This document shows, one piece after another, positions 27,165 through 27,249 of a stretch of 64,000 nucleotides of DNA; positions within the stretch are counted from its first letter, which is position 1; each line of letters starts with the position of its first letter. The stretch lies in NCBI RefSeq assembly GCF_988242995.1, contig NZ_OZ547043.1; one strand, written 5' to 3'. The notes below the pieces were generated by a model. That model was given only the letters and a program-made list of their open reading frames with translations, was not told the origin of the DNA and ran no database searches. Both the position numbers and the translations under genes were made by a program.

Positions 27165-27249
27165 TATTCTTCACTCTGAAGAAATAGGTTATTTAATCTA
27201 AATAATGCCCGTCAAGGATTTGACGGGCATTACTGCAAAGGACGCGCAA

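What the first reader, a model, noticed from the sequence alone, without database searches (positions are those of the whole stretch)
27205..27230. Perfect 10-bp hairpin overlapping the first in-frame ATG of yaiV
atgcccgtca-aggatt-tgacgggcat lies 40 nt after the yaiT stop and contains the ATG at 27205. It lacks a U-tract, so it is not a classic terminator. It may be an mRNA-stabilising 3' stem-loop for yaiT, and it argues that yaiV translation starts at 27250 (aagga RBS) rather than 27205.
Basis: inference. Interest (0 to 1): 0.15.

Follow-up and report, generated by a model that had tools for sequence, protein, structure and literature searches.

The report
Conserved RNA hairpin before iprA (yaiV)
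A real, evolutionarily conserved RNA stem-loop sits between the E. coli adhesin gene ehaB (yaiT) and the regulator gene iprA (yaiV); it shows the ATG inside it is not the start codon, which current annotation already reflects, so this is a modest and fairly ordinary regulatory element.

Summary
The hairpin is real and longer than reported: 13 perfect pairs (27203-27215 / 27220-27232), GGAU loop, dG -20.4 kcal/mol. It is single-copy in E. coli, almost invariant across 5,389 E. coli records, and has no Rfam match.

Across about 30 Escherichia, Citrobacter, Salmonella, Raoultella, Trabulsiella and Yokenella loci the 10-bp core is paired in 219 of 220 cells. Six pairs show compensatory changes. 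Every one-sided change inside the core gives G.U on the + strand, so the functional form is a + strand RNA.

The start-codon inference is supported but not new. The 15-codon extension from 27205 is out of frame, stopped or lacks its ATG in 11 of 20 orthologous loci. RefSeq and the K-12 reference already start iprA at 27250.

The '3' stabiliser of yaiT' reading is only partly supported. A shorter hairpin persists at the same distance from the iprA ATG in three Kluyvera-clade loci that lack the autotransporter. Published sigma70 ChIP-seq and RpoD SELEX data place the iprA promoter directly at the foot of the hairpin.

Best reading: a stem-loop in the short iprA leader that also serves as a leaky terminator or 3' hairpin for ehaB. 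It may be a CsrA site, because GGA sits in the loop and in the SD. Interest is low.

The parts
27203..27232 (+). Stem-loop: 13 perfect pairs (27203-27215 / 27220-27232), loop GGAU. The conserved core is 27204/27205-27214 with 27221-27230/27231.
   Evidence: anatomy, dG -20.4, z -6.65; covariation and RNAalifold consensus; + strand more stable than - strand in all 5 asymmetric lineages
27205..27207 (+). In-frame ATG inside the left arm. It is not the iprA start codon and is conserved only as part of the stem.
   Evidence: extension out of frame, stopped or lacking its ATG in 11 of 20 orthologous loci; RefSeq and K-12 start at 27250
27216..27218 (+). GGA in the apical loop (context CAAGGAU), a candidate CsrA contact.
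   Evidence: GGA kept in 17 of 22 distinct sequences; Salmonella yaiV is flagged as a predicted CsrA target with CsrA-dependent translation efficiency. Binding is inferred, not shown.
27238..27242 (+). Shine-Dalgarno AAGGA of iprA, 7 nt before the ATG. In most relatives it sits in the loop of a 3-4 bp mini-hairpin (UGCA-AGGAA-UGCA).
27250..27873 (+). iprA (yaiV) CDS, 207 aa, a CRP/FNR-like regulator (HTH_46 winged helix plus a weak cNMP-binding match).
   Evidence: annotation; Pfam; homologues
24216..27164 (+). ehaB (yaiT) autotransporter adhesin CDS, intact here (982 aa). The hairpin starts 38-40 nt after its stop.
27170..27197 (+). Predicted iprA promoter TTCACT (27170-27175) ... TTTAAT (27192-27197). 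The spacer is 16 nt in this strain and 18 nt in K-12. The implied TSS is about 27203-27205, at the foot of the hairpin.
   Evidence: Shimada 2014 PMC3946193, RpoD holoenzyme SELEX with hexamer prediction; Myers 2013 PMC3688515 Table S2, sigma70 ChIP-seq peak at U00096.2 393,682 = K-12 394,458 = window 27202. The hexamers and TSS are predictions; no mapped TSS was found.
27178..27198 (+). Predicted CyuR binding motif (K-12 GAAgAAATacTgGtAATTTAaTC). It carries a 2-bp deletion in this strain. Its right half, ATTTAA, is conserved across genera.
   Evidence: PMC11408624 Table 1; alignment
27112..27125 (+). FNR site GTGACGTAGATCAA inside the ehaB 3' end, assigned to yaiV.
   Evidence: Myers 2013 Tables S5 and S6; coordinates verified
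27167..27183 (+). Weak first stem-loop directly after the ehaB stop (TTCTTCA-ctc-TGAAGAA). It recurs with different sequences in several genera.
   Evidence: It is weak (-2 to -7 kcal/mol in most species), not universal, and its function is unknown.

Best explanation
The element is a + strand RNA stem-loop under purifying selection in the 85-nt ehaB-iprA spacer. It most likely does two jobs. It is the 5'-proximal structure of the short (about 45-50 nt) iprA leader: the iprA promoter sits directly upstream, so iprA transcripts begin at or just before the foot of the stem. There the stem would protect the 5' end from 5'-end-dependent decay and set the context of the SD 17-22 nt downstream. In genomes that carry ehaB, the same, reinforced hairpin also ends or protects ehaB transcripts as a leaky, U-poor intrinsic terminator or 3' hairpin, insulating iprA from read-through.

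Shown: the hairpin, its conservation and covariation, its strand, its fixed spacing to the iprA ATG, its persistence without ehaB, and RNA polymerase/sigma70 occupancy at its foot.

Inferred: the exact TSS, 5'-end protection, and termination efficiency.

As a corollary, the ATG at 27205 is structural, not a start codon; iprA starts at 27250.
For: - Structure and chance: 13-bp perfect stem, dG -20.4, z -6.65; none in shuffles.
- Conservation: at least 99% identical over 45 nt in 5373 of 5389 E. coli records and single-copy, while the surrounding 301 nt differs from the window by 1-5% in most genomes.
- Across 22 distinct sequences from 6 genera, the 10-bp core is paired in 219 of 220 cells, 6 pairs have double-sided changes, and 0 of 500 shuffles reach this. 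RNAalifold predicts the same stem without guidance.
- Strand: every one-sided change in the core gives G.U on the + strand, and the + strand fold is more stable in 5 of 5 asymmetric lineages.
- Link to iprA: the distance from the hairpin's first base to the ATG is 43-48 nt in all lineages. A 6-9 bp hairpin with different sequence is kept at the same place in three hemB-iprA loci that lack the autotransporter.
- Promoter at the foot: the sigma70 ChIP-seq peak centre is 1 nt upstream of the stem, and RpoD SELEX gives TTCACT-18-TTTAAT.
- Link to ehaB: the stem starts 38-40 nt after the stop. The stem is much stronger where the autotransporter is present (-17 to -21 against -9 to -12 kcal/mol). 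Tails are U-richer in Citrobacter, Yokenella and the C. farmeri paralogous locus. Unrelated canonical terminators occupy the same position in Enterobacter and L024/L025.
Against: - No TSS or 3' end has been mapped at this site in the datasets I could query: Adams 2021 Term-seq, Ettwiller 2016 Cappable-seq, Yan 2018 SMRT-Cappable-seq.
- The -10 candidate TTTAAT lacks the canonical A at position 2, and TAATTT (K-12) is changed in this strain, so the promoter hexamers are uncertain.
- An FNR class II geometry would put a TSS near 27160, making the hairpin internal to a 90-nt leader rather than 5'-terminal.
- The E. coli tail has only 3 U in 8, and the terminator scan does not call the site.
- The Enterobacter-type clade has iprA without this hairpin, so it is not indispensable for iprA.
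Confidence: 0.5

Rival explanations
1. It is only the ehaB (yaiT) transcript's 3' structure: a weak intrinsic terminator or 3'-exonuclease block. It has no role in iprA expression, and the Kluyvera-clade hairpins are decaying relics.
For: - It lies 38-40 nt after the ehaB stop.
- The autotransporter-iprA pair and the hairpin travel together, even in a second genomic context (L031).
- Tails are U-rich in Yokenella (UUUUUAUAC), the C. farmeri paralogous locus (UUUUUGC), C. gillenii (UUUUAUGC) and most Citrobacter (AUUUAUUG).
- Canonical terminators sit at the equivalent place in Enterobacter and L024/L025.
- The hairpin is about half as stable where the autotransporter is absent.
Against: - Three autotransporter-less lineages, whose IprA proteins are 71-82% identical to the Kluyvera protein, each keep a paired stem with different sequence and G.U or compensatory changes at a fixed distance from the ATG. 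Neutral decay would lose pairing.
- Only 17 nt separate the stem from the iprA ATG, and the promoter signals lie upstream of it, so any iprA mRNA must contain it or start in it.
- The E. coli U-tract is poor.
- No Term-seq 3' end was found in K-12, though that is weak evidence.
Confidence: 0.25
2. It is a CsrA-responsive leader. CsrA binds the GGA presented in the hairpin loop (CAAGGAU) and the GGA of the SD (GCAAGGA, often in a mini-hairpin loop) 23 nt apart, and so controls iprA translation. This is compatible with the best explanation and would give it a specific mechanism.
For: - Two GGA motifs in the classic layout: one in an apical loop and one over the SD.
- The loop GGA is kept in 17 of 22 distinct sequences although the other loop positions vary.
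- In Salmonella (Potts 2019, PMC6347204, Table S2), yaiV/STM0374 is flagged as a predicted CsrA target. In LB its ribosome footprints (log2FC -1.32) and translation efficiency (-1.57) change significantly in the csrA mutant while RNA does not.
Against: - The same table lists no CsrA CLIP-seq peak for yaiV, and I found no yaiV entry in the E. coli CLIP supplements, one of which was truncated.
- The direction is activation, whereas SD-overlapping sites normally repress, so the effect may be indirect.
- The loop GGA is lost in E. fergusonii, C. braakii, the C. farmeri paralogous locus, Trabulsiella, Yokenella and the Kluyvera clade.
- AAGGA is simply a good SD.
Confidence: 0.2
3. It is a DNA palindrome acting as an operator, for example an autoregulatory site for IprA, a CRP/FNR-like protein. 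GTCA-N6-TGAC has the 5-N6-5 geometry of CRP sites (TGTGA-N6-TCACA) and overlaps the predicted TSS.
For: - IprA has a CRP/FNR-like architecture (PMC4797297 lists YaiV in the Crp family).
- The arm sequence is far more conserved than the adjacent spacer, while the 6 central bases vary.
- The palindrome coincides with the sigma70 peak.
Against: - One-sided changes are all G.U-compatible on the + strand and break DNA symmetry.
- In the Kluyvera clade the two arms match as DNA at only 6 of 9 positions yet pair 9 of 9 as RNA.
- In Yokenella the upper stem is replaced by an unrelated paired sequence.
- No binding data exist for IprA.
Confidence: 0.05
4. It terminates - strand transcription, such as ampH read-through antisense to iprA, or acts as a bidirectional terminator.
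For: - The - strand tail is U-richer than the + strand tail in E. coli (UAUUUAGA, 5 U in 8, against 3 in 8) and in several Citrobacter and Salmonella (UUUUUC...).
- iprA and ampH converge with a 0-nt gap, so ampH transcripts must run into iprA.
Against: - The asymmetric substitutions favour + strand pairing in 5 of 5 cases.
- The scan did not call a - strand terminator.
- No - strand 3' end was reported here in K-12 Term-seq.
Confidence: 0.05

Closest known systems
Rho-independent (intrinsic) terminators, including leaky or U-poor and bidirectional ones
   Same: A GC-cored stem of 10-13 bp with a 4-6 nt loop, 38-40 nt after a stop codon on the same strand. The 5' flank is A-rich and the 3' flank is U-containing. 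Homologous hairpins in Yokenella, C. gillenii and the C. farmeri paralogous locus carry real U-tracts, and canonical terminators replace it in Enterobacter.
   Different: In E. coli the 3' tail is AUUACUGC (3 U in 8), and the base of the stem is A-U rich rather than GC-rich. The next gene's SD and ATG follow within 17 nt, and the next gene's promoter lies upstream of the hairpin. The hairpin also persists where there is no upstream gene to terminate.
5'-terminal stabilising stem-loops of mRNAs (ompA-type 5' UTR hairpin; Emory, Bouvet and Belasco 1992, cited from my own knowledge)
   Same: A stable hairpin predicted to begin within 0-3 nt of the transcript's 5' end, in a short leader upstream of the SD. 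Conserved pairing starts at A27204/A27205, where the predicted promoter would initiate.
   Different: The TSS is predicted, not mapped, and no half-life data exist. The hairpin also lies in the 3' region of an upstream gene.
CsrA-regulated leaders (glgC, cstA, pgaA type: GGA in a hairpin loop plus GGA over the SD)
   Same: Two GGA motifs 23 nt apart, one in an apical loop with a SELEX-like context (CAAGGAU) and one in the SD. Salmonella yaiV is a predicted CsrA target with CsrA-dependent translation efficiency.
   Different: No CLIP signal, the direction of the effect is activation, and the loop GGA is not universal across lineages.
REP/BIME and other intergenic repeated palindromes of E. coli
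   Same: An imperfectly AT-flanked, GC-cored palindrome in an intergenic region after a gene.
   Different: It is single-copy in E. coli genomes and has no similarity to the REP consensus. It is orthologously conserved at one locus across genera.

Membership tests
Intrinsic (Rho-independent) terminator | Stable GC-rich stem-loop downstream of a same-strand stop codon | tested here: met
   13-bp stem, dG -20.4, starting 38-40 nt after the ehaB stop
Intrinsic (Rho-independent) terminator | U-tract immediately 3' of the stem (about 5 or more U in 8) | tested here: not met
   E. coli tail AUUACUGC has 3 U in 8, and the scan does not call the site. The feature is met only in some relatives (Yokenella, C. 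gillenii, the C. farmeri paralogous locus, most Citrobacter at 5 in 8).
Intrinsic (Rho-independent) terminator | Mapped RNA 3' end at the tail | tested here: inconclusive
   No 3' end near K-12 394,488-394,500 in the Adams 2021 Term-seq tables. yaiT is IS3-disrupted, and published H-NS data cover this region, so absence is uninformative.
5'-terminal stabilising stem-loop | Hairpin within a few nt of the primary 5' end | tested here: inconclusive
   The sigma70 ChIP-seq peak centre is 1 nt upstream of the stem, and the predicted TTCACT-N-TTTAAT promoter implies a TSS at about 27203-27205. No mapped TSS was found.
5'-terminal stabilising stem-loop | Stem increases mRNA half-life | not testable with these tools
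   Needs rifampicin chase on wild-type, stem-disrupted and compensated leaders.
CsrA-regulated leader | At least two GGA motifs, one overlapping the SD and one in a hairpin loop, within about 10-63 nt | tested here: met
   GGA at 27216-27218 (loop) and 27240-27242 (SD); the loop GGA is in 17 of 22 lineage sequences.
CsrA-regulated leader | CsrA binding in vivo or in vitro | tested here: not met
   Potts 2019 Table S2 lists CLIP-seq = 0 for Salmonella yaiV. No yaiV entry was found in the E. coli CLIP supplements, one of which was truncated. Low expression may explain this.
CsrA-regulated leader | CsrA-dependent translation | tested here: inconclusive
   Salmonella in LB: RPF -1.32 and TE -1.57 log2 (csrA/WT), both significant, with RNA unchanged. 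The direction is activation, and the effect may be indirect.
REP/BIME or MITE-like repeated palindrome | Many dispersed copies per genome | tested here: not met
   One locus per E. coli genome; the two 'places' per genome are most likely the palindrome matching itself on both strands. There is one match in the 64-kb window even with 3 mismatches allowed.
CRP/FNR-type DNA operator | Two-fold symmetric DNA half-sites conserved as DNA | tested here: not met
   Asymmetric changes keep RNA pairing (G.U) but break DNA symmetry in 5 lineages.
Any Rfam family | Score at or above the family gathering threshold | tested here: not met
   Only chance-level hits, with E-values of 2 to 10 and scores far below gathering thresholds.
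N-terminal coding sequence of iprA (222-aa form) | Conserved in-frame extension from the hairpin ATG | tested here: not met
   Out of frame in 8 orthologous loci, blocked by a stop in 2, and AAG plus a stop in 1, of 20 in total. RefSeq and K-12 use the 207-aa form.

The most novel reading that the evidence does not exclude
A single hairpin serves two adjacent transcription units. It acts as a leaky terminator or 3' cap for the ehaB adhesin mRNA. It is also the 5'-terminal, CsrA-contacted stem-loop of the iprA regulator mRNA, whose promoter is squeezed into the 40 nt between the ehaB stop and the hairpin. This would couple adhesin read-through, Csr status, and the FNR, CyuR and H-NS inputs to the level of the H2O2-resistance and fimbriae regulator IprA.
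Probability: 0.15. Interest if true: 0.35.

Novelty: new member of a known kind. Interest (0 to 1): 0.2.

Why it matters
IprA (YaiV) is a poorly understood CRP/FNR-like regulator linked to peroxide resistance and type 1 fimbriae in Salmonella, and it always sits next to the EhaB/SeaB adhesin gene. Knowing that its leader carries a conserved RNA stem-loop gives a concrete handle on how it is controlled after transcription starts. It also explains why some gene callers still mis-start the protein at the hairpin ATG, giving 222-223 aa forms. The finding does not change any general principle. It is a tidy example of a structure-constrained ATG mimicking a start codon, and of one hairpin shared between a gene's 3' end and the next gene's leader.

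Tried and rejected
- Rfam scan at permissive E-value: only chance hits.
- Repeated-element idea (REP or MITE): rejected, because the element is single-copy.
- Terminator scan: no call at the site on either strand.
- Mapped transcript ends: Adams 2021 Term-seq, Ettwiller 2016 Cappable-seq and Yan 2018 SMRT-Cappable-seq supplements have nothing at this locus.
- Papers not held: Thomason 2015 and Herman 2016, the iprA paper. The Holmqvist 2016 CLIP paper is held, but none of its supplementary files are.
- Locus-tag and ehaB literature searches gave no transcript mapping.
- DNA-operator and - strand readings were considered and down-weighted because of the strand asymmetry of substitutions.
- The first stem-loop after the ehaB stop was examined as a possible true terminator. 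It is too weak, has no U-tract and is not universal.
- A d'Aubenton-Carafa-style T-weighting, written from memory, was used only as a rough ranking of tails.
- I did not run the metagenome scan or build a covariance model. The available loci already answered the comparative question, and only locus neighbourhoods, not whole genomes, were available to search.

Full report
**Context.** The window is E. coli: tauD, hemB, ehaB (yaiT), iprA (yaiV), ampH, sbmA. ehaB is intact here (982 aa, 24216-27164), unlike the IS3-split K-12 pseudogene. iprA encodes a CRP/FNR-like regulator with an HTH_46 winged helix and a weak cNMP-binding match.

**Observation.** The reported repeat is present at 27205-27230, starts 40 nt after the ehaB stop, and contains the first in-frame ATG of the 222-aa ORF.
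- The perfect stem is 13 bp (27203-27215 / 27220-27232) with loop GGAU.
- Folding gives dG -20.4 kcal/mol, z = -6.65, and none of 200 shuffles folds as well.
- It is the only perfect inverted repeat of at least 13 bp with a 3-8 nt loop in the window, and 20 shuffled windows had none.
- It matches no Rfam family.
- It is single-copy: one locus per E. coli genome, with the second 'place' most likely the palindrome matching itself on the other strand.
- The 45 nt around it are at least 99% identical in 5373 of 5389 E. coli records. The surrounding 301 nt differ from the window by 1-5% in most genomes.

**Start codon.**
- RefSeq/PGAP records and the K-12 reference (b0375, NP_414909.2, 394506-395129) already start iprA at the position equal to window 27250, giving 207 aa.
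- Comparative data agree. Of 20 orthologous loci, the hairpin ATG is out of frame in 8, blocked by a stop in 2, and mutated to AAG (with a stop in between) in 1.
- The ATG at 27250 and the AAGGA 7 nt upstream are conserved throughout.
- Some gene calls still use the hairpin ATG: Trabulsiella at 223 aa and a JGI call at 222 aa.

**Comparative anatomy.** I collected iprA loci from Escherichia, Citrobacter, Salmonella, Raoultella, Trabulsiella, Yokenella, Enterobacter and Kluyvera-like genomes.
- The spacer between the ehaB stop and the hairpin varies freely, while the 26-nt element ATGCCCGTCA-N6-TGACGGGCAT is nearly invariant.
- Compensatory changes: C. rodentium G-C to A-U; C. gillenii U-A to A-U, which destroys the ATG; the C. 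farmeri paralogous locus flips an outer pair; Yokenella rebuilds the upper stem.
- One-sided changes inside the 10-bp core all give G.U on the + strand: C. amalonaticus S646, C. amalonaticus ku and Trabulsiella.
- On an ungapped 22-sequence alignment the 10-bp core is paired in 219 of 220 cells. Six of 13 pairs change on both sides, and none of 500 column shuffles reaches the observed values. Slid controls fall to 27-45% paired.
- RNAalifold on the whole leader recovers the stem without guidance. It also finds a 3-bp mini-hairpin that presents the SD in its loop.
- In all five lineages where the strands differ, the + strand fold is more stable by 1.8-7.3 kcal/mol. The functional form is therefore a + strand RNA, not a DNA palindrome or a - strand RNA.

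**Which gene does it serve?**

Evidence for ehaB:
- It lies 38-40 nt after the stop.
- The autotransporter-iprA pair and the hairpin stay together even in a second genomic context (L031).
- Tails are U-richer in Citrobacter (AUUUAUUG), C. gillenii (UUUUAUGC), the C. farmeri paralogous locus (UUUUUGC) and Yokenella (UUUUUAUAC).
- Enterobacter and L024/L025 have unrelated canonical terminators at the same place and no such hairpin.

Evidence for iprA:
- The stem ends 17-22 nt before the ATG in every lineage.
- Three Kluyvera-clade loci have hemB directly followed by iprA, with no autotransporter. Each still has a 6-9 bp hairpin (-9 to -12 kcal/mol) at the same place, with a different sequence and with G.U or compensatory pairs.

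Published data place the iprA promoter at the foot of the hairpin:
- RpoD holoenzyme SELEX finds a site in the yaiU-yaiV spacer with predicted hexamers TTCACT-18-TTTAAT (PMC3946193). These are window 27170-27175 and 27192-27197.
- sigma70 ChIP-seq shows an anaerobically enhanced peak at U00096.2 393,682 (PMC3688515 Table S2).
- After a coordinate conversion that I checked against the published FNR site, that peak is K-12 394,458, one base upstream of the stem.
- An FNR site lies at window 27112-27125, and a predicted CyuR site at about 27178-27198 (PMC11408624).

Because only 17 nt separate the stem from the ATG, no promoter fits downstream of it. Every iprA mRNA must contain the hairpin or start within it.

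**Mechanism.**
- My best reading (confidence 0.5) is a dual-use + strand stem-loop. It is the 5'-proximal structure of a short iprA leader. Conserved pairing starts at A27204/A27205, where the predicted promoter would initiate, which would give a 5'-terminal hairpin of the ompA type. In ehaB-carrying genomes a reinforced version also ends or protects ehaB transcripts and limits read-through.
- TSS position, 5'-end protection and termination efficiency are inferences. I found no mapped 5' or 3' ends here, probably because the locus is poorly expressed in K-12, where yaiT is IS3-disrupted and published H-NS data cover this region.
- A specific, non-exclusive sub-mechanism is CsrA binding. The loop reads CAAGGAU and the SD reads GCAAGGA, 23 nt apart. 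The loop GGA is kept in 17 of 22 sequences.
- In Salmonella, yaiV is flagged as a predicted CsrA target. Its ribosome footprints and translation efficiency fall in a csrA mutant while RNA is unchanged (PMC6347204 Table S2).
- Against the CsrA idea: there is no CLIP signal, the direction is activation, and several lineages lack the loop GGA.

**Comparison with known kinds and verdict.**
- The element resembles a leaky intrinsic terminator, but the U-tract criterion fails in E. coli.
- It resembles a 5'-terminal stabilising hairpin, but the TSS is unmapped.
- It resembles a CsrA leader: the motif layout is met, but binding is not shown.
- It is not a REP-type repeat, not an Rfam family, and does not behave as a DNA operator.
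- Overall it is a new, undescribed instance of a familiar kind of element. The start-codon consequence is correct but already in current annotation. Interest is low (0.2).

Noticed in passing
window 27167-27183: A weak stem-loop (TTCTTCA-ctc-TGAAGAA) lies directly after the ehaB stop. A pyrimidine-left, purine-right stem recurs with different sequences in Salmonella, E. fergusonii and several Citrobacter, but not in all lineages. It overlaps the predicted -35 hexamer and the predicted CyuR motif.
   Followed up: partly
window ~27185-27190: This strain has a 2-bp deletion plus an A-to-T change relative to K-12, inside the predicted CyuR site and promoter spacer (GAAGAAATAGGTTATTTAATC against K-12 GAAGAAATACTGGTAATTTAATC). 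This shortens TTCACT-18-TTTAAT to a 16-nt spacer and could alter iprA regulation between E. coli lineages.
   Followed up: partly
window 27871-27876: The iprA stop (27871-27873) abuts the ampH stop (from 27874). The genes converge with a 0-nt gap and no room for terminators, so their transcripts must overlap in antisense.
   Followed up: no
window 27234-27248 and orthologues: The iprA SD sits in the loop of a 3-4 bp mini-hairpin (UGCA-AGGAA-UGCA; UGCA-CGGAU-UGCA in the Kluyvera clade). It is conserved across clades and weaker in E. coli itself.
   Followed up: partly
window 24216-27164: ehaB is intact here (982 aa), whereas K-12 yaiT is split by IS3. The window is therefore not from K-12. The queried 301-nt stretch (27100-27400) is 100% identical to strain FDAARGOS_497.
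   Followed up: partly
window 15284-15336: A perfect 21-nt inverted repeat (ATATACTATAGGGGGGTATGC / GCATACCCCCCTATAGTATAT) with 11 nt between the arms. It is the strongest palindrome in the window and was not examined.
   Followed up: no
L031 (C. farmeri CP081314, 4070114-4075737): A second autotransporter plus iprA-like pair (59% identity) sits in a different neighbourhood (LacI, RbsD/FucU, SDR genes). It keeps the same hairpin with a flipped outer pair and a U-tract, so the adhesin-hairpin-regulator unit behaves as a module.
   Followed up: partly
L024 vs L025: L024 is labelled Chryseobacterium sp. 18061, but the region upstream of iprA is almost identical to that of L025 (Citrobacter sp. 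18056). This is probably contamination or mislabelling of the assembly.
   Followed up: no
L032 (Trabulsiella), P0039, P0098: Several public gene calls still start IprA upstream of the conserved ATG. Trabulsiella (223 aa) starts at the hairpin ATG, a JGI call has the 222-aa length of that extension, and a Kluyvera-like call (214 aa) starts at a TTG just after the hairpin.
   Followed up: yes
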